64,000 nucleotides of DNA from Ostreococcus lucimarinus (taxonomy: Eukaryota): assembly GCA_000092065.1 (NCBI GenBank), contig CP000593.1; one strand, 5' to 3'. Below, piece by piece: positions 41,701 to 64,000 of the stretch. Position 1 is the stretch's first letter, and each line of letters starts with the position of its first letter. The notes beneath the pieces were generated by a model, which searched no databases, had not been told where the DNA came from, and saw nothing but the letters and a program-made list of their open reading frames with translations. The translations under genes and the position numbers were made by a program.

Positions 41701-41840
41701 ACTTTAAAAAATTTATCGCTATGAGTAATAAAAATAAACTTTTTTTTTGAGTTGGGGCACCCCAACATGATAAAACCGCACATCGACGTTGATGTACCGC
41801 ATGTAAGATTTCTCCAGAACCAATCGTGTGAGTGAAGTGG

Positions 41841-42710: not shown

Positions 42711-42772
42711 CAAACCATGGTCTTTTTGGTGTCTCGTTGAGTCTTCATATTGCAAATGTACGAATTACAAAA

Positions 42773-43069: not shown

Positions 43070-43169
43070 ATCGGTGTGGGCTCACTATAAAGGACAAGCT
43101 TACATGTCGGAAGAGTTGCCCGAGTCCACATCTCCACCCTGTTCCGCTTCAGTGTCACCTAGAAAGACA

Positions 43170-44810: not shown

Positions 44811-44867
44811 GATGTACGGCGATCGACGTCTCCGCGCGCGAACGAGCCGAAGAGGCGTCGCGAAGTG

Positions 44868-45142: not shown

Positions 45143-45368
45143 TTTTGTCGTTCGCGAGTCGTGACTTATAAACGACCGCCCTCCATCGCGCCGGTTCGGT
45201 TCGTATGCCGCTTTAGTTTGTGCGCAGCCGCACTTACCGACGCCGGCGAAGACGACGACGACGACGGAAACGATGACGAACGAAAACACGAAGAACACGA
45301 AGACGACGATGCCGCCGCGCGAACGCGCACGCGGTGCGAGGACGGTCGAGCGACGACGAGGGCGAACG

Positions 45369-46802
45369 ATGCGCTGCGCGAGCGCGCTCGGTGGTGGCAT
45401 CGCGATCGTCGCGAGCGCGCTCGCGCAGCGCGGCGCGCACGCGTCCGGCGCGCACGCATTCGAATGGGCTGGAATCTTTGAGACGCCAGAGAATGAATAC
45501 GTGTGGCAGGCGCAAAAGGTGGCCGATAAGTACGCCGCCGATACCATGAAAATGGTCATCTACGACGAAATCGCCGCCGGACACGACGAGCTCGAAGCCC
45601 GCGAGGATAGCGGTGATACCGCAATCGGGGGAGCTTGTACGACGGCTAAGATACGAGATAGTGTTTTGACACCTGATAGTGGGTGTGTCAACCTTGAATT
45701 TGACAACACCTGGCACACGACGCCGTTTAAGATTAATACGACTGGCATCGACGCGATCTCAATCTTCGCTGAGCACGTTCCCACCGAGTTCGAGCGCGAC
45801 GCGCACTATCTCAAGGACCTCCACGGAGATGACGTGGTGCCAAAAGCTTCACTTCCCGAAGCATCCACCGTGAGCGAATCGAAATCAAAACCGTGGGCCA
45901 ACGCCATTGGGGCGGCAATTATCGTCAATATCGTCACACTTTCTGGTGTGGTCTTTCTCATCCCGAGTATCGCTAAGAAGCAGAAAGCGTACCCTGAAAC
46001 TGTGAGTTGCACAATTAACTCGTTTGCCGCCGGCGCACTTCTTTCGGCTGCGTTTTATCTGATGTTCTACGAAGCCACGCATTTAATCAAACCTGCTGGC
46101 TCGGATGAGGCAGAGCAGACCGCATGGTGGGCTTCCGCTTCTATCTTCGGCTTTCTCATGGCCTACTTCATCGACTTTGGTATCTCTGTCGTGTTCCCAA
46201 CTCTTGGAAATACAGCGAAGACAACCGATGCGGAACTTGCAGTCAAAGGCGCTCAAGATGACTGTGATACTTGTACTTGTAACTCACACAAGTATCGCGT
46301 TCGAAGTGGTATCATTCTTGGAGATTTCATGCACAACCTAGTGGATGGTATTTTCATTGGCTTCGGCTTTCTGAACTGCGACAGTACCATGGGATGGTCG
46401 ATCACCGCCGCGACCGTCTATCACGAAATCGCTCAAGAGCTTGCTGACTACTTGGTGCTCGTAGACCCCTTCCAGGGCGATCTCGCGCCGTTGCCGACGC
46501 TGACTTTAAACTTCGTTTCCGGCTTGAGTGTCATTCTTGGCGTCCTCATTAGTGTTGGATCGGGAAATAACAACGACTTCTGGCATGGACTGCTGCTCGC
46601 CTTCGGTGCTGGAGTCTATCTGCAAATCGCCGCCGCAGAGTGCATGCCCCGAGTATCAGTGAGCGCCACTTCACCTCGTCTTCGCGCGACGAGCATTCTC
46701 ACCTTCATCGTCGGCGTTGTTGCCATCAGTCTCGTGCTCCTCAACCACAAGCATTGCACAGGCGGTGGCGGTGGCGGAGACTCACACGCACACGCGCACT
46801 AA
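45369..46802 (+). CDS. ZIP (Zrt/Irt-like) family metal transporter
   Basis: MRCASALGGGIAIVASALA is a signal peptide. Multiple TM segments follow. HNLVDGIFIGFGF and YHEIAQELADYLVL are variants of the ZIP TM-IV and TM-V motifs HNFxDGLAIG and HEIPHELGDF. The C-terminus has a His-rich stretch HKHCTGGGGGGDSHAHAH. Confidence 0.75.
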   Translation: MRCASALGGGIAIVASALAQRGAHASGAHAFEWAGIFETPENEYVWQAQKVADKYAADTMKMVIYDEIAAGHDELEAREDSGDTAIGGACTTAKIRDSVLTPDSGCVNLEFDNTWHTTPFKINTTGIDAISIFAEHVPTEFERDAHYLKDLHGDDVVPKASLPEASTVSESKSKPWANAIGAAIIVNIVTLSGVVFLIPSIAKKQKAYPETVSCTINSFAAGALLSAAFYLMFYEATHLIKPAGSDEAEQTAWWASASIFGFLMAYFIDFGISVVFPTLGNTAKTTDAELAVKGAQDDCDTCTCNSHKYRVRSGIILGDFMHNLVDGIFIGFGFLNCDSTMGWSITAATVYHEIAQELADYLVLVDPFQGDLAPLPTLTLNFVSGLSVILGVLISVGSGNNNDFWHGLLLAFGAGVYLQIAAAECMPRVSVSATSPRLRATSILTFIVGVVAISLVLLNHKHCTGGGGGGDSHAHAH

Positions 46803-46906
46803 TGAGAGCGGTAAAAAAATGTCAATTACTATCAAATCAAGTTGTGGCAAACACACCCACGGCCACTGACGGAGATCTATTTTTCAAGCTAGAGGATCAT
46901 ATAAAT

Positions 46907-46911
46907 TGTAA
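46907..46911 (+). promoter_or_regulatory. TGTAA poly(A)-signal-like motif downstream of the ZIP gene
   Basis: aaattgTGTAAatcg lies ~105 nt after the stop at 46802. Confidence 0.35.
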
Positions 46912-47025
46912 ATCGAAACGCTCTTCGTAATTTACGGCACCTGTTCCTCGATCTCCTGGCGAACATCGATGAATTATTTCGATAAGATGTCCCAGATGTT
47001 ACCCACACCACGGTACTTGTGAAGC

Positions 47026-47137
47026 TTAATCCAGATACGCGCGCACGCCTTTCTGAAGCATGGTCGGTACCTCGGCTTTCAACTTGTCTGGGAGCGTCGC
47101 GTCGGCGTCCTTGACCTCGCGCAGAAAATCGAGCACC
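47026..47137 (-). CDS. Small hypothetical protein, exon 2
   Basis: It encodes ...VLDFLREVKDADATLPDKLKAEVPTMLQKGVRAYLD*. This frame is reached only by removing a 53-nt intron. Confidence 0.35.
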
Positions 47138-47190
47138 CTATTGGTGGAGAACTGTCAGGGAAGGATCCAAGGTGGCGGCATTTGATACAC
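47138..47190 (-). other. Putative 53-nt intron (GTGTAT...CTGAC...AATAG) in the small hypothetical gene
   Basis: The donor is CT|GTGTATC and the acceptor is ccaccaatAG|G. CTGAC lies ~14 nt upstream of the acceptor. The length of 53 nt restores a long ORF across the two flanking frames. Confidence 0.35.
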
Positions 47191-47369
47191 AGGTTGCGCC
47201 AGGCTTTGTTAGACAGCAACGGACTCGATTTTACATCATCCGCCAGTATTGCAATTCCTACACGCTTCCCATTTAGCCAGTGCTTGGGCTCCTCGAATTG
47301 GTCTGTTTCGGGATTATACAGACTGAGCATCTCTGGGGTCAAATACTCGTCCCACACGGAGGCGTTCAT
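47191..47369 (-). CDS. Small hypothetical protein, exon 1 (from first ATG)
   Basis: It encodes MNASVWDEYLTPEMLSLYNPETDQFEEPKHWLNGKRVGIAILADDVKSSPLLSNKAWRN. Its composition is moderate in GC and coding-like. The ORF opens upstream at a TTG. An acceptor-like tttacAG lies just 3' of repeat copy 2. Confidence 0.35.
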
Positions 47370-47433
47370 CAGGTGCCCATCGAGTTCCTTGTATTGCTTC
47401 AATCTCGTCGCGGTATCTCTGTAAACAATTTTG

Positions 47434-47655
47434 CTGGTAGAGTGTCAGACTGTTAGGAAAAAGTCTCCGTCGAATATGACGGCTGCTCCGATAGAGATCT
47501 GGAAGCCGCGGGATCGAAACCCGCAGGAAGAGATGTGTCGACATCACACCTTACTTTTTCCCACACCCGATTGTCCGTGATGGAAAAGCGACACGACAAC
47601 ACTGTGACTTTCGTCGTTTCGGGGTGACGGATAGTACTTTAAAAAATTTATCGCT
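47434..47655 (+). mobile_element. tRNA-derived SINE-like repeat, copy 2 (5'-truncated, begins in the D-loop)
   Basis: It is ~98% identical to 41478..41700. It lacks the first 14 nt of the tRNA-like head. It is followed by a 12-bp palindrome, CCCCCATGGGGG. Confidence 0.6.
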
Positions 47656-47770
47656 GTGAGATTCACCCCCATGGGGGGAGCTCGGCTTCCCTGATTTTTT
47701 TGTCACTTTTTCACGACGCCGCGAACCCCTCGTCCCGAACTCCGAGACGCGACGCGAGACATCCATCCCA

Positions 47771-48943
47771 TCACACGAGTCGCCCCCCCGCGAGATAATC
47801 GGCGACTCGCACGACGCGCGCGTTCGCGTCGAACGCGCCCGCGTGGACGTCGTCGTCGCCCGCCGCGAGCGCGGCGCCTTCGTCGTCGAAATCCACCTCG
47901 TCGAGCGCTCGGTAGCTCTCCATCAACGCGGGATCTTTGGCGGCCATGAGCTTTAAATCTTCCAACACGCGGTCCAGATTGACGTCGTCGACGAAGTTTC
48001 CCGCGAACGCCACCGTGCAATCGAGGTTTCGAACGGCGTGCGGCGAGCCGCCCGGCACGAAAAGCACCTCGCCCGGGCCAAGATCGACGTCCCATCGGCG
48101 CGCGCCGAATTCACGCGGGAGCGGTAACATTCCCATCTCTTCTTGTTCCTCCAACGGTGGCATCGCGGGATCGAGCGTGCCGCGCGACCAGCTCGGCCGT
48201 AAAAACGCGAGCGATTCGCGCGAGAAGACGGTCCATCGCTTCGTGCCGCGCACCACGGCCATGAAAAAGTGCCCCTGCCACTGATCGACGTGCAGGGACG
48301 ATCGCGTGTTCTTCGCGGCGACAAACAAGCTCGGCCACGACCGTGAAAATGCCGTCAATCGCATCGTGCGCTGCATGTAATCGTGTGCCACGTACGCCGG
48401 TACGCGCACGCTCTCCGACAACGACGGCAGCTTGAGCGGAATCGACGTGTCGTACAAGTAACTCCCCGCCCCTCGATCGTCCACGACTTCCGCGAAAAAG
48501 TCCTTTAAATCCAAAACGTCCGTCACCTCGCACGACAGCGTCGCGCGTCGGTGACCATCCTTCCTCGTGACGGCGACTTTTTTATTCCCGGCGCGCCGCG
48601 TCAACCACGCGCACGTCTCGCCGTCCGCGCCGTCCTCCGTCAGCGCGCTCCCGAGCCCCTCGATCACGACCGGGGTATCCGTGGCGACGTATTCGAGTCG
48701 AAAACGTCGCGGCGTGAGATCGCGCGCGTGCACGCGCGCGACGTCGCGTCCCGTCGTCGTCGGTTTTTCGACACCCGAATCTGCGGCGGCGGCGGCGGCG
48801 AGCGTCGCGCGCGCGCGCTCGACGCGCGCGACGATCGCGTCGACGTACGCGCGACGACCGTCGTCGGTCTCTCGGGCAGCGCGCGCGGCGAGATCGGCGC
48901 GCTCGACGTCGAGGCGCGCGATCTCTTCGTCGAAAAGCGTCAT
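47771..48943 (-). CDS. JmjC-domain (cupin-like 2OG/Fe(II) oxygenase) protein
   Basis: ...SSLHVDQWQGHFFMAVVRGTKRWTVF... (Hx(D/E) region) and ...GEVLFVPGGSPHAVRNLDCTVAFAGNF (distal His) fit the JmjC double-stranded beta-helix. The ORF starts with ATG. Confidence 0.75.
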   Translation of the reverse strand: MTLFDEEIARLDVERADLAARAARETDDGRRAYVDAIVARVERARATLAAAAAADSGVEKPTTTGRDVARVHARDLTPRRFRLEYVATDTPVVIEGLGSALTEDGADGETCAWLTRRAGNKKVAVTRKDGHRRATLSCEVTDVLDLKDFFAEVVDDRGAGSYLYDTSIPLKLPSLSESVRVPAYVAHDYMQRTMRLTAFSRSWPSLFVAAKNTRSSLHVDQWQGHFFMAVVRGTKRWTVFSRESLAFLRPSWSRGTLDPAMPPLEEQEEMGMLPLPREFGARRWDVDLGPGEVLFVPGGSPHAVRNLDCTVAFAGNFVDDVNLDRVLEDLKLMAAKDPALMESYRALDEVDFDDEGAALAAGDDDVHAGAFDANARVVRVADYLAGGRLV

Positions 48944-50719: not shown

Positions 50720-52681
50720 CGCGGCGGGCGACGCGCGCGCGAGGGACGCGCGCGCGACGACGGGCGACGACGCGCGATGCCTCGATGCGGCGCGACGGCG
50801 CGGGACGAGCGCGCGATGGGACGCGCGCGATGGGCGGGACGAGGGCCGGGACGCGCGCGAGCCGGGACGCGCGCGGCGGCGTCGGGCGACGATAAAAAGG
50901 CGCTGACGCTCGAGGAGCGCATCGCGAGCGGAGAGTTCACGAAGGCGTCGTCCACGGGACCGTTTCGAAAGGTGGCGGACGGGCTGCGGGGACTGGTGCC
51001 CGAAGACGCGGGACCGGTGGGGCGAGGGGTGTCGCTGGCGCTCGCGAGGTTATCGAGGCGGTGGCGCGCCGAGGCGATGTCGAAGATGCCGGTGGCGAGC
51101 GGGGACATTCGCGAGATCGCGGGACAACCGGTTTTTGTGCCGCTGTATAAGCTGTTCTTGGCGTACGGGGAGATGTTCGTCCTGGCGATCGGGCCGAAGA
51201 AATTCGTCGTCGTGAGCGACAACGCGGTGGCCAAGGAGATGTTGCTCACGCAGGCGAAGAGCTTCTCCAAGGGATTGCTGTCGGAGATTTTGGACTTTGT
51301 CATGGGTCAGGGGTTAATCCCGGCGAACGGTGAGGTGTGGAAGATTCGACGCAAGGTGATCGTGCCGAGCTTGCACAAAAAGTACGTCACGTCCATGGTG
51401 GACATGTTCGGCGACTGCGGGTTGAAGGGGATGTCGCAGCTCGCGCGCGCGGAGAAGGCGAACGAGTCGGTGGAGATGGAGAACTTTTACTCGCGATTCG
51501 CCTTGGATATCATAGGCAAGGCGGTGTTCAATTACGATTTCGACTCCTTGTCCACGGACGACCCCGTGATCAAAGCCGTGTACACGGTTTTGCGCGAAGC
51601 CGAGTACCGGAGCGTGACGTTTATTCCCTATTGGAAGGTTCCCCCGCTTCGCTGGCTCGTGCCGAGGCAGCGTCAGTGCCAGGAGGCGCTGCAAGTGGTG
51701 AACGACACCTTGGATGACCTCATCAACCGATGCAAAGCCGTGGTGGAGGAAGAGGATGAGGAATTCGTCGAGGAGTACATGAACACGGACGATCCGAGCA
51801 TTTTGCACTTTCTCATCGCGAGCGGCGACGACGTGACGTCCAAGCAACTTCGCGATGATTTAATGACGCTCCTGATCGCCGGCCACGAAACCACCGCCGC
51901 GGTGCTGACGTGGACGACATTTTTGCTCGCCAAGCACCCCGAAGTGAAGGCCAAGGTATTCGAGGAGGTTGACCGCGTCGTCGGCGACCGCAACCCGACG
52001 GTGGCGGATATGCGCGCGCTCGTGTACACGACGCGCGTCATCAACGAGTCCATGCGACTTTACCCGCAACCTCCGGTGTTAATCAGGCGCGCGTTAGAGC
52101 CCGTCACCCTCGGAGGGTACAACATCGACGCCGGAACCGACTTCTTCATTTCGGTTTGGAACTTGCACAGAAACCCGCGGATTTGGGACGAACCCGACGC
52201 GTTCAAGCCCGAACGCTTCCCGATCGACGCCCCGATGCCGAACGAGTACACCGAAGAGTACGCGTACTTGCCCTTCGGCGGTGGCCAGCGCAAATGCGTG
52301 GGCGATCAGTTTGCTATTTTTGAGTCAATCGTGTCGCTCGCCATGCTCATGCGACGATTCGACTTTGAACTCGACGAGTCCAAGCACCCCGACGGCGAAT
52401 GCGGCATGACGACGGGCGCGACGATTCACACCACGAACGGCTTGCACGTCAAGCTCAAGCGCCGCGATGGGCGAGGTGGGCGAGAGATGGACGGCACGTA
52501 CGTCACCGGTATGGCGTTGAGCAACCTGGAAGACGTCGACGTCGTTCGAGGGTCCATCGACGCCCCGACGGCGAGCGCGGACGAGTTCGACGCCGCCGTC
52601 GACGACGTTGACGGGGACACGTCGGAGAAACTCGAGCGCGCGAAAGAGATCATCGAGGAAGAGACAGCGAAGGCGCGCTAG
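50669..52681 (+). CDS. CYP97: Cytochrome P450, CYP97-like (carotenoid hydroxylase family), with transit-peptide-like N-terminus and acidic C-terminal extension
   Basis: ...SKGLLSEILDFVMGQGLIPANGEVWKIRRKVIVPSLHKKY is the CYP97 hallmark block. LIAGHETT is the I-helix. FLPFGGGQRKCVGDQFA is the heme-Cys loop. The ATG at 50669 lies inside a longer ORF that opens at 50480. Confidence 0.8.
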
Positions 52682-52845
52682 TCGTAGGCAACGAAAATCG
52701 CATCGATCGTTCATCATCAGTAGCTCAAACGAATTTTAATTCTATTCATCGGAACGTCGAACGCCGAAGCGCGGTGGTGTCTCGCTTAGCGATAACGCTT
52801 ATAATATCGGTATTAAGAAAGAATCGCGCGCGCACGCAGTCTAGT

Positions 52846-54237
52846 CTACAACAAGAGTTTATTAAGCGCATCGTCCATGTCGTTCACCACCACCGTCGCC
52901 GTGGACGTGTCGGAGTCGAGCGGATAAATAAACGTCACCACGGCGGTGATGTCGTCGGCTCGCTCGTCGTGCTCTTGCCAACGCGAGAACGCGGCGCGCA
53001 CGATGGCGTGCGCGGCGCGTTCGGCGGCACCGGGCATGTTCTCCTCGTAAAATTTCTCCGCGATCGCCATCGTTTCCGCGCTGGACATGAACTCGAACAC
53101 GCCGTCGGAGGCGACGACGACGCACCGCGTCGACGGCTCGGCGTTCAAGTCAAACTCGCTCATCTCGGGCGTCGCGCTCACGCCGAGCGACTTCCCCACG
53201 GTGTCACCGATCGAGCGAGTGAACGCGCATCCGGGAAAACGATAACCAGCCATGAAAACGCGCGGCGGGTCGTCGCAATATTCCTCGTCCGAACCCGGTT
53301 CGCCGTCGCCAAAGTCCTCGTGCGCCTCGGTTTCGCCCAAAACCATGCCGATGGTGGCGAACGTCATCGGCGACGTCGCCTCCGCTTTCATCCGCGCGCG
53401 CTCGTCCGCGCGAAAGCACGTCTGATCATGCGTCAAATCTCTCACCTCCCATCGCCTCGTGTGTCGATTCCCGACCGCGACGCCCGCCGCGCGCTCGACG
53501 CCGACGACGCATCGCGAATCCCCGACGTTTCCCACGCGCACCACGCCTTCGTCATCAAACAGCGCCGTGATCGCCGTCGACCCCGAAAACGACGCGTTCT
53601 CCCCCATCTCTTTGCACACCACCGCGTTCACCGCCTCGAACGTCCGCGCGTACCCATCCCTCAGCGCCGCGCCTCCCCGCGTCTCCCTCGCCAGCGTCTC
53701 CGCGAACGTCGCCCGCGCGATTTGCGCGCACTCCTCCCCGTGCTTCCCGTGCCCATCGAACACCCCCACCAGCACCCGTCCCGTCTCTCGCCGCGCCACC
53801 GCATCGTTTCCCTCCCCATCGATCACCGCCTCCTCGTGCGCCATCTCCCTTCCCTCCCACGTCGCGCACGCGTCCTGATTCACGTGATGATCCTTGTGCG
53901 GATAACATCCCTCCTGGCAGCACCACGCCACGCGCGCCGCGAACCGCGCGCTGAGCGCATACGCCCGTTCGCTCGCCACCTCCCGTCGCGTCGCGTCCAT
54001 CTCGAACCTCAGCGGTCGCGCGCGCGGCGGCTTCGCGCGCGGTCGCCACGCCGTCGCCGCGCGTCCCGCGCGCGCGTTATCCGCTTTCGCGTCGGTCGCT
54101 GTCGGCGCGTTTGCGTCGATCGCGGGCGTCGCCGCGCGACGCGCCGGATCGAACGCGACCGTCGCGCGCGCCGCGTCGTGGCCATCGCGCGCGGGCGCGC
54201 GCTCGCGCGCGCGGTACGCGCCGGGCGCGAGCGCCAT
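52846..54237 (-). CDS. Protein phosphatase 2C (PPM family)
   Basis: VGVFDGHGKHGEECAQ, GSTAITALFDD, VGNVGDSRCVVG, SIGDTVGK, VVASDGVFEF and DDITAVVTF match PP2C motifs 1-11. The ORF starts with ATG. Confidence 0.8.
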   Translation of the reverse strand: MALAPGAYRARERAPARDGHDAARATVAFDPARRAATPAIDANAPTATDAKADNARAGRAATAWRPRAKPPRARPLRFEMDATRREVASERAYALSARFAARVAWCCQEGCYPHKDHHVNQDACATWEGREMAHEEAVIDGEGNDAVARRETGRVLVGVFDGHGKHGEECAQIARATFAETLARETRGGAALRDGYARTFEAVNAVVCKEMGENASFSGSTAITALFDDEGVVRVGNVGDSRCVVGVERAAGVAVGNRHTRRWEVRDLTHDQTCFRADERARMKAEATSPMTFATIGMVLGETEAHEDFGDGEPGSDEEYCDDPPRVFMAGYRFPGCAFTRSIGDTVGKSLGVSATPEMSEFDLNAEPSTRCVVVASDGVFEFMSSAETMAIAEKFYEENMPGAAERAAHAIVRAAFSRWQEHDERADDITAVVTFIYPLDSDTSTATVVVNDMDDALNKLLL

Positions 54238-54480
54238 GTGACGCGTTACCGGGACGCGGCGGCGCGTGGCGGCGGGGCGACCGACCGTATGTGCGTAAAC
54301 AGTACAGACGACATTTTCGACGCCCGCGCGTCGACGTCTCGAACGAATTCGTTCTCGAATACGACGTATGGAGGCGCAGTCAGCGCGCTGTTTGCGCGGT
54401 GCTTCAATACGGGCGGTGTGATTTAATTAGCGCCGACGGATCGCGCGATCGACGGCGCGCGCGCGACACGGCGACGCGCG

Positions 54481-54501
54481 ATGCGCGACCTGACGTCGAC
54501 G
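54481..54501 (+). CDS. EIF3E: eIF3 subunit E, exon 1 (7-codon micro-exon, MRDLTST)
   Basis: ATG CGC GAC CTG ACG TCG ACG is followed by the donor GTGCGA. Joined to exon 2 it gives MRDLTST|IAARLDAHLTLPLLEF, aligning with human [25 protein letters not shown]. Confidence 0.7.
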
Positions 54502-54776
54502 GTGCGACGCGACGCGACGCGAGCGCGACGCGACGCGCGACGGGAGACGACGGGAGACGACGGGCGGCGACGCGACGAGCGGACGGCGAACGCGAACGCG
54601 GCGACGCGGCGGCGGCAGGGTTTGCGCGATCGCGACGGCGACGCGGCGCGCGCGACGGCGGCGGACGCGCGAGGACGCGGGCGAAGAGTAACGCATCGCG
54701 AACGCGTCGCGGACGCGAAGGGCCGACGCGCCGCGGTCGAGCGCGAGGACTGACGGAGCGCGGGACGACGACGCAG
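54502..54776 (+). other. EIF3E: Intron of eIF3e (275 nt, phase 0)
   Basis: The donor is GTGCGA. CTGAC lies ~25 nt before the acceptor acgCAG|ATC. Read-through gives only R-rich sequence and a stop at 54753. Confidence 0.7.
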
Positions 54777-56018
54777 ATCGCGGCGCGGCTGGACGCGCAC
54801 CTGACGCTGCCGCTGCTGGAGTTCGCGCTCGCGGAGGGCACGCACGATGCGAAGTCGCTGCGAGAGGCGAAGCTGGCGACGCTGGTGAAGACGAAGATGT
54901 GCGATTGGGCGGAGGAGGCGCGCGCGGAGGCGAGCGGGTCGGGATCGGCGGCGGAGGCGAAGGCGAGGCGGGACGCGACGGTGGAGGCGCACGCGGCGCT
55001 GGGGAAGGCGGCGGCGCGGGCGGTGAAGTTCGCGAGCGATGGGGCGCTGATCAAGAACTTGCGACGGGATAAGGCGGCGAACGCGAAGTTCGCGGAGGAT
55101 AATCACGGGGTGACGAGCGCGGACGTGGACGCGCTGTACAAGTTTGCCAAGTTTGAGTACGAGTGCGGCGATTACGAAAACGCCTCGGAGCACTTGGGCG
55201 CGGTGCAGTTGTTGAGCGCGGACAACGAGCGGTGCGAGAGCGCGCTGTGGGGGAAGTTCGCGGCGGACATTTTGTTGCGGAACTGGGGCGGGGCTCTGGA
55301 CGACATGAATAGGTTGCGAGACGCGTTGGAGAGCAACGCGAGCACGAGCAACCTCGTCAAGATGAAGCAGCGCGCGTGGTTGTTGCATTACGCCCTGTTC
55401 GTCTTCTTCAACCACCCGAACGGTCGCAACTTGATCATCGACGTGTTGTTCCAGGAGCGATACATGCAAGCGGTGCAACAAGAGGCGCCGCATTTGTTGC
55501 GTTACCTCGCCGTCGCCATCGTCGCCAACAAGAAGCGCCGCAACATGCTCAAAGACTTAGTGAAGATTATCCAGAGCGACGTGTACGACGATCCCGCGCT
55601 CGACTTCGTCGTCGCGGCCTTCGTCGACTACGACTTCTCCAAGACGCAAGAGATGCTGAAGAAGTGCGACGCGATGATTGAAAAGGATTTCTTTTTAATC
55701 GGCTGCAAGGACGCGTTTGACGAAAACGCTCGACAGTACGTCATCGAAAACTACTGCAAGGTGAACAAGCGCATCGACATCGCCAACTTGGCGCAAATGC
55801 TCGGTATGCCCGCCGCCGACGTCGAGGCCACCATCGCGACTCTCATCCGCGGCAGTAAGCTCAACGCGCGAATCGATTCCGAAGCCGGCTTCGTGCACGT
55901 GCACGTCGAGAAGAAATCCGTCAACGAGCAAATCATCGAAAAGACCAAAGCCTTGCTGTCCAAGACCACCGCCCTCACGCAAGCCGTGTTGGCCAACACC
56001 CAGGCGCAGGCGTATTAA
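54777..56018 (+). CDS. EIF3E: eIF3 subunit E (Int-6), exon 2
   Basis: ...YKFAKFEYECGDYENASEHL...WGKFAADILLRNW...WLLHYALFVFFNHPNGRNLIIDV...HLLRYLAVAIVANKKRR...VIEKTKAL... is collinear with eIF3e, including the PCI domain. The long upstream ORF (54111-) has no in-frame Met before this block. Confidence 0.85.
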   Translation: MAARLDAHLTLPLLEFALAEGTHDAKSLREAKLATLVKTKMCDWAEEARAEASGSGSAAEAKARRDATVEAHAALGKAAARAVKFASDGALIKNLRRDKAANAKFAEDNHGVTSADVDALYKFAKFEYECGDYENASEHLGAVQLLSADNERCESALWGKFAADILLRNWGGALDDMNRLRDALESNASTSNLVKMKQRAWLLHYALFVFFNHPNGRNLIIDVLFQERYMQAVQQEAPHLLRYLAVAIVANKKRRNMLKDLVKIIQSDVYDDPALDFVVAAFVDYDFSKTQEMLKKCDAMIEKDFFLIGCKDAFDENARQYVIENYCKVNKRIDIANLAQMLGMPAADVEATIATLIRGSKLNARIDSEAGFVHVHVEKKSVNEQIIEKTKALLSKTTALTQAVLANTQAQAY

Positions 56019-56097
56019 CGACAATTTGTCATCGTCAACGCACCGGTATAGTTCGCGCCGCGCCGCGTCCCTCGCGTCACTTCGCCTCGCGCGCGCG

Positions 56098-56475
56098 ATG
56101 TCCCCGCCCCTCCGTCGCCTCGCGCGCCTCGTCCCGCGCGTCGCCGACGCGCGCGCGTTCGCGTCCGGCGCGGGCAAAGACGTCGTCCGCCGCGACTCGA
56201 GCGACGTCGCGTCGTCGTCGTCGTCGTCGGACGCCAATCCTTGGCGACCGGTGGTGGACCGCGAGACGCGGCGCGTGTACTTTTGGAATCCTCGCACCGG
56301 CGAAACCTCCGCGGTCGGCGCGCCGCGCCCCGCGACGGAATTTTTAGCGGACGATCCAGGCGCGTCCGCGCGCGAGGGAATCGGGACGCAGATCGGGTCG
56401 GCGTTCGCGATGGGCGCGGGCGCGTCCCTCGGTTTCGCGGCGGTCGCCGTCGCGGCGAGAATCGCGTTCGGTTGA
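56098..56475 (+). CDS. Small protein with WW-like motif and C-terminal transmembrane anchor (hypothetical)
   Basis: MSPPLRRLARLVPRVADARAFAS looks like a presequence. PWRPVVDRETRRVYFWNPRTGETS fits W-x7-R-x-YFWN-x2-TGE-T, a WW-domain-like core. GTQIGSAFAMGAGASLGFAAVAVAARIAFG is a hydrophobic C-terminus. Confidence 0.45.
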   Translation: MSPPLRRLARLVPRVADARAFASGAGKDVVRRDSSDVASSSSSSDANPWRPVVDRETRRVYFWNPRTGETSAVGAPRPATEFLADDPGASAREGIGTQIGSAFAMGAGASLGFAAVAVAARIAFG

Positions 56476-56700
56476 TCGCGAGCGGTTCTTTAAAGACGCG
56501 ATCGATCGCGCGGATGGCGCGAACGCGCGTGGATCTCGTAGCGCGCTGTTGTTACAAAAGAATGGTTTCGTGGGTGCATCGCGGGATGGTTTCGTGAGCG
56601 CGTCGCGAGTTCGCGACGGGACGCCGACCTCGACGGCGTCCTCGCCGTTCCGACCAAATTTCACTCAAAAAATGTTTCGCCGACGCGCGACCGGTCCGCA

Positions 56701-57300
56701 TCACAGCGCGTCTCGCGAGGATAGACGACGAGAATAATCATCGCTCGACGGCGTCGTCGTCGCCGCCGCGCGCTCGAATTCTCGATCGGAATCTCGAAAT
56801 AAAATCCCGAGCGCCTCGAGCGCGGAGCCCCCGCGGGTCTGTAGAATTTCCTTCATCGGCGCCACCGAGGCGTAACCCACGCGAGGCTTCGCGCGTCGTT
56901 CGCCCTCGTCCGCGCGCGACGATTCCGACGAATCGTCGCGCCGTTCGATCCCGAGCGCGTCGAAATCTTGGAAAAGCGTCCCCGCGCGTTCTCGTTCTCG
57001 TTCTCGTTCTCGTCTCGGGACGTCCCGCGCGCGCGCCTCTTCGCTCTTCGCGCGCCGGTGCTTTCGCGCGTCGCGCGAGACCGCGCGCGGACGAAACTCG
57101 ACGCGCGCGTTCGCGTCCTCGCGCTTCGGCGCGCGTCGCGCGCGGCGCGGCGACGCCGGCGCGCTCGCGACGTCCCGTCGCGCCGCCGCGTCTCGCCGCG
57201 GCGAGGGCACCTTCACCCGGCTCGACGACGTTCCCATCGCCGGCGACCGCGCGAGCGCCGGAAGCGCGTTCCCGTGTTCGTCCGTGATCAGGCACATGCG
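56701..57300 (-). CDS. Possible gene for a low-complexity (RE)n-containing acidic/basic protein; unresolved
   Basis: The distal part of minus ORF 56701..57684 (...VAPMKEILQTRGGSALEALGILFRDSDREFER...) has moderate GC and a protein-like composition. The remainder is R-rich. It contains a (CGTTCT)n microsatellite at ~56991-57015. The start is not determinable. Confidence 0.2.
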   Translation of the reverse strand, partial: RMCLITDEHGNALPALARSPAMGTSSSRVKVPSPRRDAAARRDVASAPASPRRARRAPKREDANARVEFRPRAVSRDARKHRRAKSEEARARDVPRRERERERERAGTLFQDFDALGIERRDDSSESSRADEGERRAKPRVGYASVAPMKEILQTRGGSALEALGILFRDSDREFERAAATTTPSSDDYSRRLSSRDAL

Positions 57301-58085
57301 CCCGCGCGCGTCTCGGACGTCGCGCGCGAGGTGGCCGCGCCGACTGTCCGGAGACGCCCACCCCGAGCGCACGTCGCGAACTGCGGCGCGGCGTCGACCG
57401 CGACCGCTCGCGCGGCGACGCGCCGCGTCGATTTTCGTCGATTCGATCCTCGGCGGTATCGGAACGCGCCGATTCTCGGCGGTCTCGGAACGCGCGACGA
57501 GTCGGGAACCGATGGGCGCGGATTTTCGTTTGGTCGTTGCCAACGCTACGACGCGAACGCGCGCGACGCCTGACGACGCTACGACGCGAACGCGCGCGAC
57601 GCCACGCGCGCGACGAAAGAATACAAGGAATACGCGCCGCCGACGACGGCGAAGAACGCGACGACGGCGAAGGCGGCGAACCACTCGCGCGAGACGCGCG
57701 CGCCGTCGGCCGCGGCGGCGACGCCGTCGGCCGCGGCGGTCGGTTTCTTTTTCTTTTCGTTTTCGCGTCGTCGAGCCGCGCCGTTCGACGCGTCGCCGTC
57801 CGCGTCATCCCGCGACGCGTCTTCGCGCGCCGCGGCGACTTCGCGCGCTCGCAAGAACGCGTCGATCTCGGCCATTCGCCGCGCCTTCTTCTCGGCTTTG
57901 TCCAGCTCGCGGCGCCGCGTCGCCGTCGAGGGCGGTTTCGCCGCGTCGATCGAGGTCGTCGCCGTCGTCGCGGCGTCTTCGCTCGTCGTCGCGACGTCCG
58001 CGCGCGCGACGCGCATCGCGGCGCGGTCGACGCGCGCGGCACAGTGCCGCGCGAGGATCGAATCGATTCGCGTTCGTGCGTCGCG

Positions 58086-59405
58086 ATGTCGGCGTCGCGC
58101 GCGCTTCGTCGCGTCGTCGCGGGCGCGTCGAACGCGTCGCGACCCGCGCGCGGCGCGTCGGCGGTCGCGGACGCCGCGCCGCGCGTCGGCGGCGGCGAAG
58201 GGCGCGAATCGACGTCGTCGTCGATGCCGGCGTCGCGGTGGCGTCGCGGCGCGCGCGCGCGCGGCGCGTGCGACGGGACGACGTCGTCGCGGTGCGCGCC
58301 GTCGTCGTCGTACCTGGAGTCGAAGCGTCGACGCGCGGCGGTGGCGGCGGCGATCGCGCGGTCGACGCGCGCGGCGGCGGCGGCGGCGGCGCGGCGAGCG
58401 CGCGCGTGGGACGCGACGGCGCGCGCGGACGCGCGCGACGGCGCGTACCGCGACGACGGCGCGCGTCGCGTCGAAAAGTTGTCGCGGGTCGGCGTGCTGG
58501 GCGCGCCGAACGCGGGGAAGAGCGCGCTGGCGTGCGCGCTCGTCGGCGACGCGGTGAGCGCGGTGAGTCGAAAGACGAACACGACGCGGACGCGCGCGCT
58601 GGGGGTGCGCACGGTCGGGGACGCGCAGGTGGTGTTCGTGGACGCGCCGGGGATCGTGGGGCGCGAGCACTACAGGAACGCGGCGCACGCGAGAAAGGTG
58701 GAGGACGCGACGGCGCTGGCGAGCGAGTGCGACGCGTTGGTCTTCGTCGTGGACGCGGCGAGACAGTTGGAGCGACGGGATTTGCGCGTGCTGGAGGCGG
58801 TGCGAAAGACGCGAGCGGCGCTGGGGGAGATGCGCGCGCCGCCGGAGGCGGTGCTGGTGCTGAATAAGGTTGATAAGATTCCGAAGGAGCGACGCGCGGG
58901 GTTGACGAAGATGGTGGACGATTTCCGCGCCGCGGGGGATTTTGAATTCGCGCGCGTGTTTCCCGTCAGCGCGCTCACGGGGGCGGGAACGAGAGCGCTG
59001 ATGGATCACATCGTCGCCGGCGCTCGGGAGGCGCCGTGGGAGTTCGACGCGACGTCGACGAGCGATATGACGCCGGCGCAGAGGGCGCTGGAAATCGTGC
59101 GCGAGAGCGTGTACGACGGCGTGCACGAAGATTTACCGTACGGCATCGACATCGCGCACGTCTCGTGGGAAGACTTTAGAAACGGTGACGCGCGCATAGA
59201 GCAAAATATTTTAGTCGACACCGCGTCGCAGAGGAAAATAGTCGTCGGAAAGTCGGGCGAAGTCGTCGGGCGAATCGGCATCAACGCCAGAGCGATGCTC
59301 GAGCGCGCGCTCAATCGCAAAGTGCACTTGATCCTGAACGTGAGACTGAAGAAGAAGAAGAAGAACTATCGCAGCGATGACGTCGTGTTCGCGGAGCAGT
59401 ACTGA
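58086..59405 (+). CDS. ERA: GTPase Era (ERAL1-like) with C-terminal KH domain
   Basis: VGVLGAPNAGKSAL is G1. DAPG is G3. NKVD is G4. The KH fold is ...KIVVGKSGEVVGRIGINARAMLERALNRKVHLILNVRL. The ATG at 58086 (MSASRALRRVVAGAS..., presequence-like) lies inside a longer GC-driven ORF that opens at 57537. Confidence 0.8.
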   Translation: MSASRALRRVVAGASNASRPARGASAVADAAPRVGGGEGRESTSSSMPASRWRRGARARGACDGTTSSRCAPSSSYLESKRRRAAVAAAIARSTRAAAAAAARRARAWDATARADARDGAYRDDGARRVEKLSRVGVLGAPNAGKSALACALVGDAVSAVSRKTNTTRTRALGVRTVGDAQVVFVDAPGIVGREHYRNAAHARKVEDATALASECDALVFVVDAARQLERRDLRVLEAVRKTRAALGEMRAPPEAVLVLNKVDKIPKERRAGLTKMVDDFRAAGDFEFARVFPVSALTGAGTRALMDHIVAGAREAPWEFDATSTSDMTPAQRALEIVRESVYDGVHEDLPYGIDIAHVSWEDFRNGDARIEQNILVDTASQRKIVVGKSGEVVGRIGINARAMLERALNRKVHLILNVRLKKKKKNYRSDDVVFAEQY

Positions 59406-59542
59406 TTAGTCGTAGGCGTAGTCGTAGATGGACGCGGCGCGGACAACCTTCGGGGCGTCTCGTAGCGGTAAACAACAACAAATCAATCACAACTGCACAA
59501 TAACGTTAAACACGACGCGCCTCGCTTCGAAGCGCGACGCGA

Positions 59543-60484
59543 CTACACGGTTTTCAAAACCTTCGCGTCTTTCGTCTCTCTGGACGACGACTCAAAGTAC
59601 CTCCTCGTGGTTTCGATGACGGTGAAGTAAATCACCCCGCCCAAACCGATTTCCAGCGCGCGCGGCGCCGCGCCGCGAAAGAAAAACGACATCCCGAACC
59701 TCTCCTTCAGTCGTTTCAACCCCGCCAATCCCTTTGGATGCGTCTTGAGATCGATTCCCATCGAAGACGCGCACACGTGCGCCGTGCGCGAGACGTCAAA
59801 CGGCGTCGTCACCAATCCCGTGAGACCGCCCGCGACGCCGCCGATGATCGCCGTCTGTCGCTTCCCCAGCGCTCTCTTCTTCTTCGTCTTCTTCCCGCTC
59901 TCGTCCGCCGCCGCGCCCTCGATCGCCAGCGTCGCTCGTTTCATCGCCTCGAACGCGCTCATCTGGATCGTGTCGAACGGCAGTTCCCTCGCCAGAAAGC
60001 TTCCGAATCCCGCGAACAGCTCTCCTCGTCTCGCCGACAGCCTCGCCGCCGTCGCCAGGCTCAACCGCGACACTTGCATTCGCCGCGCGATCAGCTCCAT
60101 CGGCGCCAGCACCGCGCTCGACGCCAGCGCGCCGAGCATCGCCGCGATCGACGGGTCCAACCCGAGCGTGCTCTTCGCGCACTCGTACGCCGACATGAAC
60201 AACGCGGTGCCCGGCGCCGCGCCGAGCAGCTCCGCCGCGACGCCGCCGTACAGCCGGTCCGCGGTCAATCGCCCGCCCGCCTGCGCGCGCGTCTTGAGCG
60301 TGTTCAGCGGGAACAGCACGAGCTGGCACGCGATGCCGGCGCACGCGCCGCTCGCGATGCCGACGCGGAGGGAACGCGCGAACGACGGCGGTCGGTCGGT
60401 CGCCGACGACGAAGCGTCGCGGCGCGTTTCGCGGCGCGCGCGCGCGCGATCGGCGTCGGCAGGGACGCGGGAGGGAGGCGGCAT
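59543..60484 (-). CDS. Mitochondrial carrier family protein, S-adenosylmethionine-carrier-like (SAMC)
   Basis: Three carrier repeats are present. The first signature FPLNTLKTRAQAG resembles SAMC (FPLDTIKTRLQ). The ORF starts with ATG. Confidence 0.7.
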   Translation of the reverse strand: MPPPSRVPADADRARARRETRRDASSSATDRPPSFARSLRVGIASGACAGIACQLVLFPLNTLKTRAQAGGRLTADRLYGGVAAELLGAAPGTALFMSAYECAKSTLGLDPSIAAMLGALASSAVLAPMELIARRMQVSRLSLATAARLSARRGELFAGFGSFLARELPFDTIQMSAFEAMKRATLAIEGAAADESGKKTKKKRALGKRQTAIIGGVAGGLTGLVTTPFDVSRTAHVCASSMGIDLKTHPKGLAGLKRLKERFGMSFFFRGAAPRALEIGLGGVIYFTVIETTRRYFESSSRETKDAKVLKTV

Positions 60485-60661
60485 GCGCGCTCGACCCGGG
60501 CGTCGCCGTGCGCGCCGCGCGCGCGCGGCAGGGGCGCGGAGTGGCGCGCGATGGCGCGGCGATGGACGACGGGCGACGCCGCGAGCGAACGCGCGAGAGG
60601 GACGGAGACGCGAAGGAACGAATGCGCGGTCTTAGCGTTGAAACCGAGGCGCGTCGCGCGA

Positions 60662-63425
60662 TCACTCGAGCGACTTGGAGACGATCTCGAAGACGTTTTC
60701 GCTCAGACCCGTCTTGGCGGCGATGCGCTCGAGCTGCGCCTTCATCGCCGACGCGCGCGTCGGCTCGAATTTGCGCCAACGCGTAAACGCGGACACCATG
60801 CGAGAGGCGACTTGGCCGTTGAGATCGTCGAGCTCGAGGACGATGTCGGCGAGGAATTCGTAACCGGAGCCGTCGATGGCGTGAAAGTTGGTGGGAGAGG
60901 CGCAGAAACCACCGATGAGGGAGTACACTTTGTTGGGGTTCTTGATGTCGAAGGCGGAGCCGGCGGCGAGCGCGCGAACGTTGGCGAGGTTGTTCGGGAG
61001 CGACGACGCGGCTTGGATGCTGAGCCATTTGTTCATGACGAGCGGGTCGTGCGACCACTCGGCGTAAAACGCATCGATGGCTTTGATGCGTTCGTCGCAG
61101 TCTTTGCCGCTGAGCGCGCTCAGGGCGGCAATCTTATCCGTCATGTTGTCCGCGGCGACGTAGCGCTCGTACGTCATCGCGGCGATTTCCGGCGCGTCCA
61201 AATACGACAAATATCCGATGCACGCGTTTTTCAGCGATCGCGCGGCGCGATCGGCGGGTTCGTTCGAATACACCGCGGCGCTGTTCGCTTGCGCCGTGGC
61301 TTCCAACTCAGCGCGAAGCTCCGTGGCGAGCGTCTTCATGACAAAGTCGCGAGCGGCGTGCACGGCGGCGGGATCCACCGTGCCCTCTTCGAGCATGTCG
61401 CTCAGCTCGCCCTCGGAAGGCACCATCATGGCGCGCGCGATGAACGCCTTGTCCGCGTCGGCAGCCTTGGCGCCCGAAAGAATCGTGCGCATCGCCGCCG
61501 TGATGGCGTCGTTCATCTTGAATGACTGCTCGCCGCCCTTGATCAGATCCAGGCAGAGGTTTCTGAGCAGCGTCTGCCCAGCCTCCCATCGGTTGAACGC
61601 GTCCGAGTCGTTCGCCATGAGGAACAACAAGTCGTCTTGCGTCAAGTTGGTCGTCAAACGCACGGGCGCGCTGAAGTTGCGCAAGATGCTCGGCACGGGC
61701 TTGGCGTCGACGCCGGTGAAAGTGTACGTCGCCGAGGCTTGATCGAAACGAAGCACCGCCGTCGTGCCGTGGGATTTGCCGTCGATCGTGAGGTTCATGT
61801 CTGCACCGTCGGGACCAACGAGACCAACGGCGATCGGGCACAAGACCGGAACCTTGGAGTCTTGACCGGGCGTTTTCGGAACCACTTGCGAGCATTCGAG
61901 GGTGAACGTCTTCGCGGCGGCGTCGTAAGACCCGTTCGCGGTGACGCGCGGCGTACCCGCTTGGGAGTACCAGGGCTTGAACGTGGACAAGTCCGCACCG
62001 TTGGCGTCGCACATGGCGGCGAAGAAATCCTCCGTCGTCACCGCTTGACCGTCGTGACGTTCAAAGTACAAATCCATCCCCTTGCGGAACCCATCCTTGC
62101 CGAGGAGCGTCTCGTACATGCGCACGACTTCCGCTCCCTTTTCGTAAACTGTCACGGTGTAAAAGTTATCCATCTTAATGTACGATTCCCGGGCGAATCC
62201 GGTGCGCCATCGGACCCGCGTCTTGGGCGAATTGCGCCATGCGAAGGCGCGAGACGTCGCCGATGCGCTTGACGCCTCGCGAGTTCATATCCGCGCTGAA
62301 CTCTTGGTCTCTGTACACAGTCAGCCCTTCCTTGAGGGACAGTTGGAACCAATCACGACACGTCACACGGTTTCCAGTGTAGTTGTGAAAGTATTCGTGC
62401 GCCACGACACCTTCAATGGCGGCGTAATCGGCATCCGTGGCGCTCTGCGGCGTCGCCAACACGAGACGCGAGTTGAAAATGTTCAGCGACTTGTTCTCCA
62501 TGGCGCCCATGTTGAAATCGTCCACGGCGACGATGTTGAAAAGCTCCAAGTCGTACTCCAAACCATACGTGTCTTCGTCCCATTTCATGGATTTGATCAA
62601 GCTCGTCATCGCGTGCGCGCACTTGTCCAAGTTGTGCGTCTCGGTGAAGATGCGAAGCGTCACTTCTTTGCCCGTCATCGTCTTGAATTTATCCTCCACC
62701 ATCCCGAGATCACCCGCGACGAGCGCGAAAAGGTAACACGGTTTTGCCCACGGATCTTCCCACACGGTGAAGTGCTTACCACCCTCCAAATCTCCAGAAT
62801 CCACCAAGTTTCCGTTGCCGAGCAGCACCGGATACTTCGTCTTATCCGCCGTGATGCGCGTCGTGAATATCGACATCACATCCGGTCTATCTTGATAAAA
62901 CGTGATTCGTCGGAAACCTTCCGCCTCGCATTGCGTGCAAAAGTTCCCAGACGACTTATAAAGTCCCTCGAGCGCGGTGTTCTCTTGCGGCTTAATCGTC
63001 GTCGTCACTCGCAAATCAAACGCCTCCGTCGGCAGCGCGCGCAGCGTGATCCCCTTCCCCGTCCGTTCGTACGTCGTGAATTTCGCGCCGTCCACCTCGA
63101 TCGCCGCCAACTCCACCGATTCATCGCCGTTCAGGAACAACGATTTCCCATTCGCATCGTTCGCCGGTCGAACTCGAATCGTCGACGTCACCGTCGTCGT
63201 CGCCTCCCCGAGCTCAAAGTCCAAATTCACCCTTTCGAACGCGTACGCCGGTCGCTCGTAATCCTTCAGATATATCGTCTTCGGCGCCTCCGTCGGCGTC
63301 TCCGTCGCCGTCGTCATCGCGCGCGGCTTCACCGCGCTCGTTCGCGACGTCGCGTTCGATGGTTTCGGTCGTGACGTCAGCGCTCGAAACGCCGCGCTCG
63401 CGACGCCTCGCGCGCTCGATCGCAT
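60662..63425 (-). pseudogene. pepN: Aminopeptidase N (M1 family, bacterial/plastid PepN-like) split into two frames by a 1-nt indel near 62176-62190; either a sequencing error or a pseudogene
   Basis: ORF 62175..63545 gives ...[37 protein letters not shown]... (HEXXH+E) ...[16 protein letters not shown] and then stops. ORF 60662..62173 in the neighbouring frame gives (ESYIK)MDNFYTVTVYEKGAEVVRMYETLLG.... Deleting one nt in cgcCCGGGaatcg yields [14 protein letters not shown], collinear with E. coli PepN [14 protein letters not shown]. The ATG at 63425 precedes a transit-peptide-like region. Confidence 0.7.
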
Positions 63426-63698
63426 CGTCGGCGCCGACGCTCGCTCGGGCGTCGTCTCGGGGATTCGTCGCGGCGCGCGCGAGCGTCCGGGCGCGCGTCG
63501 TCGTCGCGCTGTGCGGCGCCGAGCGCGACTGCGAGCGAAAAGCACACTTTCCAGCGCTTCAAAACGCGGCGACGCGGCGCGCGTCGCGTCGAGCGCGACC
63601 GCGGCGCGCGCGCGCGTCGCGAAGGCTTTATAACGGGCGCGCGCGGCGTCGGCGCGCGGAATCGCCGCGCGACGCGCGCGAAAGACGGCGAAACGTCG

Positions 63699-64000
63699 AT
63701 GGTGGAAAACTCGTCCGCGACGGGGACGACTCGAGAAACGTACGAAAGCGCCAAGCGCGCGCGCGAAGACGCGCGAACGGAGATCGCCATGGATGCCGTG
63801 CGCCGCGCGGGCGACGCAGACGCGTCAACGAGCGCGACGGTGAGGGATGGGGAGGTGTTTTCGAAGAATTTGTACTTTGAGCACCCGTCGACGACGGCGC
63901 GAAGCGCGAGAGCGACGGAAGACGCGATGCGAGCGCGCGGCGTGCGCGTGGTGCGAGGGGCAGATGTGCCCAAAATCGTGACGACGTTCGAGGAGGCGTC
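63699..64000 (+). CDS. DEAD-box RNA helicase (DDX5/Dbp2-like), N-terminal part; continues beyond the window
   Basis: MVENSS...[50 protein letters not shown] matches the conserved pre-Q-motif block FEKNFY.EHP...E.E.YR....I.V.G...PKPV..F.EA. It is open to the window end. Confidence 0.6.

What the first reader, a model, noticed from the sequence alone, without database searches (positions are those of the whole stretch)
62150..62200. Frameshift splitting an otherwise intact PepN-like aminopeptidase N
Two adjacent minus-strand ORFs (456 aa and 503 aa) together reconstruct a complete M1 aminopeptidase. They are collinear with E. coli PepN across the junction (…PMAHRIRPG / [18 protein letters not shown] versus [26 protein letters not shown]). 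One extra nucleotide in the CCCGGG run shifts the frame. The frameshift has three possible explanations. (a) An assembly or sequencing indel in a homopolymer-like run. (b) A very recent pseudogenisation. (c) Programmed frameshifting. Everything else in the gene looks functional, including HEXXH+E, the transit peptide and the full length, so (a) is most likely. It still needs flagging because it would create two spurious gene models.
Basis: seen in the sequence. Interest (0 to 1): 0.5.

Follow-up and report, generated by a model that had tools for sequence, protein, structure and literature searches.

The report
Frameshifted duplicate of an aminopeptidase gene
One extra base and a neighbouring substitution break an aminopeptidase N gene in the green alga Ostreococcus lucimarinus, but an intact twin sits on the recently formed chromosome 21, so this is either a newborn pseudogene or a sequence error and not a recoding signal.

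Summary
Two minus-strand ORFs, 63425-62175 and 62173-60662, together make a complete M1 aminopeptidase N. They are separated only by one extra G in CCCGGG at 62188-62190.

- A second private change lies 10 nt upstream, at 62200. It turns the invariant PMAHPIRP motif into PMAHRIRP.
- All 28 environmental contigs I fetched (98.5-99.9 % identical) carry neither change.
- The window matches Ostreococcus lucimarinus CCE9901, and the region is duplicated in that genome.

The repaired protein, with Pro restored, is exactly GenBank ABP01169.1 on a 321,799-bp chromosome. Neighbouring genes each carry two accessions, ABO994xx on a 528,469-bp chromosome and ABP011xx. The literature describes Chr 21 as a fusion of duplicated parts of Chr 9 and Chr 13. 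So the window holds the broken ancestral-locus copy, and Chr 21 holds an intact twin.

About 38 other window genes show no frameshift.

Weights:
- Real, very young inactivation of a redundant duplicate: about 0.55.
- Sequencing, cloning or finishing artefact: about 0.40.
- Programmed frameshifting: rejected.

Raw reads, or an alignment of the two chromosome records, would decide. I could retrieve neither. Interest is low to moderate.

The parts
62175..63425 (-). N-terminal fragment ORF, 416 aa from ATG 63425. The GenBank model of the intact paralogue starts at the second ATG, 63317. It holds the R/S/A/T-rich leader, the M1 N-domain and most of the catalytic domain, and ends ...[15 protein letters not shown].
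   Evidence: Pfam PF17900 and PF01433 positions 2-141.
60662..62173 (-). C-terminal fragment ORF, 503 aa, starting MDNFYTVTVYEKG. It holds the rest of the catalytic domain, including the Tyr of TVYEKG (62135-62149), the Ig-like domain and the ARM-repeat domain.
   Evidence: Pfam PF01433 positions 150-216, PF11940 and PF17432.
62188..62190 (-). GGG run, CCC on the + strand. All relatives have GG here. This is the 1-nt insertion that shifts the frame.
   Evidence: 28 of 28 related contigs lack the base, and a metagenome scan that accepted both alleles found only the intact one.
62200..62200 (-). Private C->G change (CCG->CGG), Pro->Arg in the invariant PMAHP(I/V)RP motif, 10 nt upstream of the insertion.
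   Evidence: Pro is present in every homologue inspected and in the CCE9901 paralogue ABP01169.1.
62175..62177 (-). TAA stop reached in the shifted frame, four codons after the insertion.
62493..62507 (-). GAMEN exopeptidase motif.
62325..62399 (-). Zinc-binding motif HEYFH (62385-62399) followed by the Glu of LKEG 18 residues after the second His, that is HEXXH-X18-E.
63544..63544 (-). Third change not seen in any related contig, T versus C, 119 nt upstream of the ATG in the intergenic region. Significance unknown.

Best explanation
The window comes from the 528,469-bp chromosome of Ostreococcus lucimarinus CCE9901, either Chr 13 or Chr 9. This is the ancestral, syntenic locus of a single-exon aminopeptidase N gene. 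A block that includes this gene was recently copied onto the strain-specific Chr 21, the 321,799-bp record.

The Chr 21 copy is intact and is annotated as ABP01169.1 / XP_001422810.1. The copy in the window has suffered one local, probably single, complex mutation: C->G at 62200 plus a 1-bp insertion at 62188-62190. Translation stops after [12 protein letters not shown].

The N fragment keeps GAMEN and HEXXH-X18-E but loses the catalytic Tyr and domains III-IV. The C fragment lacks the zinc site. Neither piece can be an active enzyme, so this copy is a newborn, non-processed pseudogene that is tolerated because the twin supplies the function.

Shown here: the lesion, its absence in all relatives, the intact twin, and the duplication. 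Inferred: that the lesion is biological rather than a flaw of the deposited sequence, and that the two changes arose together.
For: - Anatomy of the lesion.
- All 28 related contigs, from well over 20 marine metagenome assemblies, read CACCCGATTCGCCCGGAATCG. Intact proteins P0121 and P0133 alone sit on more than 140 contigs.
- The repaired 884-aa protein with Pro is found exactly as ABP01169.1, 'predicted protein [Ostreococcus lucimarinus CCE9901]', on a 321,799-bp contig. The version with Arg and the split ORFs are not on record.
- Flanking genes each equal two CCE9901 accessions, with the longest contig 528,469 bp: Mito_carr ABO99437+ABP01170, PP2C ABO99435+ABP01172, JmjC ABO99433+ABP01174.
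- About 38 other genes of the window have no frameshift against environmental orthologues, so the sequence is not generally indel-prone.
- The other SNPs that first looked private (61817, 61277, 61037, 60782, 60711 and others) are reproduced 100 % by independent Logan contigs, so the window is otherwise accurate.
- Process argument, which is inference: in a finished Sanger assembly, reads from both near-identical copies pile up together. A low-quality miscall would be outvoted, whereas a high-quality discrepancy would be kept as a copy-specific difference.
Against: - Two changes 10 nt apart, against a background where three neighbouring paralogue pairs are identical in protein, is also what a localised base-calling, compression or clone artefact looks like.
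- Both changes are G/C events in a G+C-rich stretch with a 6-bp inverted repeat, CGATTC...GAATCG.
- No read-level or transcript evidence was obtainable. No independent dataset that matches the window 100 % reaches the junction: L024 stops at 62057.
- I could not retrieve the DNA of the paralogous chromosome to count other copy-specific differences.
Confidence: 0.55

Rival explanations
1. The lesion is an artefact of the deposited sequence. The living cell has two intact copies. The extra G and the C->G would then come from one of three sources: clustered base-calling or compression errors, a mutation acquired in the E. coli clone used for finishing, or a finishing mistake in a hard-to-resolve duplicated region.
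For: - The two anomalies cluster within 10 nt and are both G/C changes in a G+C-rich stretch.
- The allele is absent from all 28 related contigs and from a JGI metagenome scan that would have accepted it.
- The rest of the gene is identical in protein to the intact paralogue.
- Near-identical duplicates are hard to finish (general knowledge).
Against: - The genome is a finished Sanger assembly (my knowledge of Palenik et al. 2007, not verified here).
- None of about 38 other genes in the window has a frameshift.
- Everywhere an independent 100 %-identical dataset overlaps, the window is confirmed base for base over more than 10 kb.
- The G run is only three bases long, so this is not a typical homopolymer error.
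- The related contigs come from other strains, which probably lack the duplication, so their intact state is expected under both hypotheses.
Confidence: 0.4
2. The gene is recoded. Full-length enzyme would be made from this locus by programmed +1 ribosomal frameshifting at CCG-G-GAA, by transcriptional slippage, by editing, or by a tiny intron.
For: - The +1 frame is open across the site.
- The 0-frame stop follows four codons later.
Against: - The extra base is absent from the paralogue and from 28 of 28 close relatives, so nothing here is conserved or 'programmed'.
- CCG-GGA-A matches no known +1 shift site, by inspection against RF2 (CUU UGA C), antizyme (UCC UGA U), Ty1 and Ty3 from my own knowledge.
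- Runs of three C and three G are too short for polymerase slippage.
- Homology is gap-free across the junction, so no intron fits.
Confidence: 0.02

Closest known systems
Ostreococcus lucimarinus CCE9901 predicted protein ABP01169.1 / XP_001422810.1 (UniRef A4SBP7), on the 321,799-bp chromosome
   Same: It is identical to the window's conceptual product at 883 of 884 residues once one G is removed. This includes the strain-specific Thr in ...AAKTGL.... The flanking genes are the same.
   Different: It has no frameshift, and it has Pro instead of Arg in PMAHPIRP. It lies on the derived, duplicated chromosome rather than at the ancestral locus.
Bacterial aminopeptidase N (PepN, MEROPS M1): N. 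meningitidis 2GTQ/4QHP and E. coli 2HPO/2DQ6
   Same: The alignment runs end to end with E about 1e-255 to 1e-247. The four-domain architecture, GAMEN, HEXXH-X18-E and the Tyr of (T/L)TVYEKG are all shared.
   Different: The algal gene has an N-terminal extension. In this window the frame is broken between the zinc site and the catalytic Tyr.
Plant 'puromycin-sensitive aminopeptidase'-annotated M1 peptidases
   Same: They are 56-60 % identical over at least 95 % of the length and have the same Pfam architecture.
   Different: They are multi-exon plant genes. They are orthologue-level relatives only.
Young non-processed pseudogenes after segmental duplication (duplication-degeneration, divergent resolution in the sense of Lynch and Force)
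   Same: There is a recent block duplication, one copy is disabled by a single lesion, and the other copy is intact.
   Different: The disabled copy here is the ancestral-locus one and the survivor sits on a neo-chromosome. The reality of the lesion is not yet proven.
Programmed +1 frameshift genes (prfB/RF2, antizyme, Ty1/Ty3)
   Same: A +1 shift would be needed to make the full-length product.
   Different: There is no conserved shift site, no stop or hungry codon at the site, and no conservation in any relative.

Membership tests
M1 aminopeptidase N (PepN type) | GXMEN exopeptidase motif | tested here: met
   GAMEN at 62493-62507.
M1 aminopeptidase N (PepN type) | HEXXH-X18-E zinc-binding motif | tested here: met
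   HEYFH at 62385-62399, with Glu 18 residues after the second His.
M1 aminopeptidase N (PepN type) | Four-domain architecture (PF17900, PF01433, PF11940, PF17432) collinear with solved PepN | tested here: met
   Met only across the two ORFs taken together. The repaired protein aligns at 13-883 with 4QHP, with no gap at the junction.
M1 aminopeptidase N (PepN type) | Uninterrupted reading frame linking the zinc site and the catalytic Tyr | tested here: not met
   The frame is broken at 62188-62190 and a stop follows at 62175-62177. The Tyr of TVYEKG lies in the downstream ORF.
Duplicated (non-processed) pseudogene | An intact paralogue in the same genome | tested here: met
   ABP01169.1 on the 321,799-bp contig. 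Flanking genes carry paired ABO and ABP accessions. PMC2367439 describes Chr 21 as duplicated parts of Chr 9 and Chr 13.
Duplicated (non-processed) pseudogene | A disabling lesion that is absent from orthologues | tested here: met
   28 of 28 related contigs are intact.
Duplicated (non-processed) pseudogene | The lesion is present in the organism's DNA, with read-level support | not testable with these tools
   No raw reads are available. Logan contigs identical to the window stop short of the site.
Programmed +1 ribosomal frameshift | Shift site and frame arrangement conserved in orthologues or paralogues | tested here: not met
   The extra base is unique to the window.
Programmed +1 ribosomal frameshift | A recognised shift-prone site with a stop or rare codon in the A site | tested here: not met
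   CCG GGA ATC, with the stop four codons downstream. The comparison with known sites rests on my own knowledge.
Sequencing or assembly indel artefact | Other spurious frameshifts in the same stretch of assembly | tested here: not met
   About 38 genes were compared with environmental orthologues and none other is split.
Sequencing or assembly indel artefact | The allele is contradicted by independent reads of the same strain | not testable with these tools
   The NCBI chromosome records and the reads were not retrievable.

The most novel reading that the evidence does not exclude
The lesion is real, so the ancestral-locus copy of aminopeptidase N is dead and the only working copy now rides on the strain-specific neo-chromosome 21. 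That would be an observed first step of divergent resolution. A freshly formed chromosome becomes indispensable, and crosses with wild strains that lack Chr 21 could yield progeny with no functional copy.
Probability: 0.3. Interest if true: 0.5.

Novelty: new member of a known kind. Interest (0 to 1): 0.3.

Why it matters
For annotation, this locus should be marked as a pseudogene or a low-quality site and not as two genes. Anyone counting M1 peptidases in O. lucimarinus should know that the functional copy is the Chr 21 one.

For biology, if the lesion is real it dates the Chr 9/13 to Chr 21 duplication as very recent. It also shows that degeneration has begun at the ancestral locus, which bears on how a new chromosome becomes fixed in one of the smallest eukaryotic genomes.

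If the lesion is an artefact, it is a correctable error in a much-used reference genome.

Tried and rejected
- **Paralogous chromosome DNA.** The look-up of encoding contigs counts one 0.2-1 Mb contig but never shows it. It reports nothing for P0177. The two copies could therefore only be compared through exact protein look-ups.
- **Frameshift allele elsewhere.** Exact look-ups of the 380-, 416-, 456- and 503-aa split products and of the Arg-containing repaired proteins found nothing on record. A JGI metagenome scan with a pattern that accepts both alleles found 5 contigs, all intact.
- **Independent datasets identical to the window.** Logan contigs from SRR23274481 and SRR1179203 match 100 % but end at 62057 and 59697. 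A guessed edge-partial product of 508 aa was not on record. A literature search for the two run accessions found nothing.
- **Palenik et al. 2007.** The paper is not held. The Chr 21 statement is taken from PMC2367439.
- **Intron explanation.** Rejected, because homology is gap-free across the junction.
- **Quasi-palindrome or template-switch origin of the double change.** I inspected the 6-bp inverted repeat CGATTC/GAATCG by eye. The changes do not improve any repeat, so there is no support.
- **First guess at the organism.** I initially guessed Micromonas from the G+C content. This was replaced by exact matches to O. lucimarinus CCE9901 proteins.

Full report
**Observation**

On the minus strand, ORF 62175..63545 runs straight into ORF 60662..62173 (503 aa) in the next frame. 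The upstream ORF is 456 aa from a GTG, and its first ATG is at 63425.

The DNA reads ...ATG GCG CAC CGG ATT CGC CCG GGA ATC GTA CAT TAA G ATG GAT....

Pfam splits one M1 peptidase between the two ORFs:
- The upstream ORF holds PF17900 and PF01433 positions 2-141.
- The downstream ORF holds PF01433 positions 150-216, PF11940 and PF17432.

Removing one G of CCCGGG gives a 920-aa protein. Its 884-aa form aligns from residue 13 to 883 with Neisseria and E. coli aminopeptidase N structures at E about 1e-255. There is no gap at the junction: [28 protein letters not shown] against [28 protein letters not shown].

GAMEN (62493-62507) and HEYFH-X18-E (62325-62399) lie upstream of the break. The Tyr of TVYEKG (62135-62149) lies downstream. 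From my own knowledge this Tyr is the transition-state Tyr, Tyr381 in E. coli. Neither fragment could be an active enzyme.

**What the relatives show**

The nearest database proteins are intact. A 90 % cluster of 101 sequences from Tara, ENA, JGI and Logan marine assemblies includes 884-aa and 920-aa full-length forms.

I fetched 28 related contigs that are 98.5-99.9 % identical in DNA. Every one reads CACCCGATTCGCCCGGAATCG where the window reads CACCGGATTCGCCCGGGAATCG. The window therefore carries two private changes 10 nt apart:
- C->G at 62200, which turns the invariant PMAHPIRP into PMAHRIRP.
- One extra G at 62188-62190.

A scan of JGI metagenomes with a pattern that accepts either allele returned five contigs, all with the intact allele.

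Contig L028 differs from the window over 64000..61933 only at 63544, 62200 and 62190. The other SNPs that first looked private are reproduced exactly by an independent Logan contig that is 100 % identical over 62057..58418. Two more Logan contigs are 100 % identical over 59697..51877. The window is therefore otherwise accurate. Unfortunately none of these contigs reaches the junction.

**Identity of the organism, and the twist**

An exact look-up of my repaired protein found GenBank ABP01169.1 / XP_001422810.1, 'predicted protein [Ostreococcus lucimarinus CCE9901]', on a 321,799-bp contig. The look-up used the 884-aa form with the frameshift removed, Pro restored and the strain-specific Thr kept. 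The same protein with Arg, and all the split products, are not on record. No splicing of the window's DNA can yield HPIRPE, so that protein is encoded elsewhere.

Exact look-ups of neighbouring window genes explain this. Each equals two CCE9901 accessions, with the longest contig 528,469 bp:
- Mito_carr (59546-60484): ABO99437 and ABP01170.
- PP2C (52846-54000): ABO99435 and ABP01172.
- JmjC (47774-48943): ABO99433 and ABP01174.

The block is therefore present twice in this genome, on a 528-kb chromosome and on the 321.8-kb chromosome. Only the latter carries the intact aminopeptidase.

The gene order in the window matches that of all the environmental contigs. These include chromosome-length JGI contigs of 526-532 kb. 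The window is therefore the ancestral locus on Chr 13 or Chr 9, and the intact twin is on Chr 21. The chromosome numbers are inferred from sizes and accession order. I could not open the records, because the contig look-up tool counts one 0.2-1 Mb contig but never displays it.

**Is the assembly error-prone here?**

I translated the called genes of environmental contigs and aligned them to the window. About 20 genes in 34-64 kb and about 18 genes in 4-25 kb each align in a single frame. The aminopeptidase is the only split gene.

Private indels elsewhere in the 13 kb nearest the gene are intergenic or are multiples of three. One of them, the 3-nt insertion in Mito_carr, is confirmed by four independent contigs.

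**Explanations**

*Programmed +1 frameshifting, slippage, editing or an intron: rejected.*
- The extra base is in neither the paralogue nor any relative.
- The site resembles no known shift site.
- The C and G runs are only three bases long.
- Homology leaves no room for an intron.

*Real lesion in a redundant duplicate.* Points in favour:
- The twin removes purifying selection.
- The surrounding sequence is verified base for base where it can be checked.
- No other frameshifts occur.
- In a finished Sanger assembly of two near-identical copies, a low-quality miscall should be outvoted by reads from both copies. A high-quality discrepancy would be preserved. This last point is inference.

*Artefact of the deposited sequence.* Points in favour:
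- Two G/C changes lie within 10 nt, against a background where three neighbouring paralogue pairs are identical in protein.
- Clustering of this kind is typical of local base-calling, compression or clone problems.
- The allele is seen nowhere else. The other sequences come from other strains, however, so their intact state is expected under both hypotheses.

I put the real young pseudogene at about 0.55, most simply a single complex substitution-plus-insertion event. I put an artefact at about 0.40 and recoding at about 0.02.

**Comparison with what is known, and novelty**

The protein is an unremarkable PepN-type M1 aminopeptidase. It is the green-lineage orthologue of proteins annotated 'puromycin-sensitive aminopeptidase' in plants, at 56-60 % identity.

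The Chr 21 duplication is published. I did not find the broken state of the ancestral copy described, but I could not read the genome paper. At most this is a new example of a well-known process, degeneration of one copy after segmental duplication.

The only mildly interesting angle is that the ancestral-locus copy is the broken one. That would make the neo-chromosome indispensable. Interest is low to moderate (0.3).

The decisive tests are simple but lie outside these tools: allele counts in raw CCE9901 reads, and a DNA alignment of the two chromosome records.

Noticed in passing
window 41,496-47,660: A low-GC (50-55 %) island of about 6 kb carries a Zip-family transporter ORF (45273-46802 +), a CobW-like GTPase (43170-44915 -) and small ORFs. 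It is bounded by direct repeats of about 230 bp (41496-41725 and 47435-47660). It is present in contig L034 and partly in L037, and absent from L035, L036, L038 and L039. It is therefore a presence/absence polymorphism among near-identical Ostreococcus strains.
   Followed up: partly
window 43,172-43,346: The 3' end of the CobW-like gene has a 175-nt insertion relative to L034, flanked by a 14-nt direct repeat TGATGTCTTTCTAG. It adds an acidic D/E-rich tail and a new stop.
   Followed up: partly
window 38,177-38,179: A window-private CGA->TGA change, against four environmental contigs, removes the last 11 residues of the 1028-aa MJ1567-like protein. This is a second possibly degenerative change in this strain.
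   Followed up: partly
window 59,912-59,914: A 3-nt in-frame insertion in the mitochondrial-carrier gene gives 313 aa instead of 312 aa. It is shared with four independent contigs, so it is a genuine allele.
   Followed up: yes
window 57,430-58,000: The 5' part and upstream region of the GTPase gene (KH_2/MMR_HSR1) is a hotspot of multi-base indels (15, 26, 5 and 2 nt) between strains. Gene callers give 367-759 aa for it in different contigs, which suggests a repeat-rich or intron-containing segment.
   Followed up: no
window 14,182-15,585: EF-1alpha equals three CCE9901 accessions (ABO99278, ABO99358, ABP01268). It occurs in two different genomic contexts in environmental contigs (L040/L042 versus L041/L043). 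There are therefore two ancestral loci plus, apparently, a Chr 21 copy.
   Followed up: no
loci L034, L035, L036: JGI samples 3300046163, 3300050343 and 3300047157 hold chromosome-length contigs (531,512, 526,947 and 526,351 bp) collinear with this window. These sizes are close to the 528,469-bp CCE9901 chromosome.
   Followed up: no
window 51,877 (loci L044, L045): Logan contigs from two unrelated runs, SRR1179203 and SRR23274481, are both 100 % identical to the window and both end at exactly 51,877 inside the P450 gene. That suggests a graph branch there, either a repeat or a copy-specific difference.
   Followed up: no
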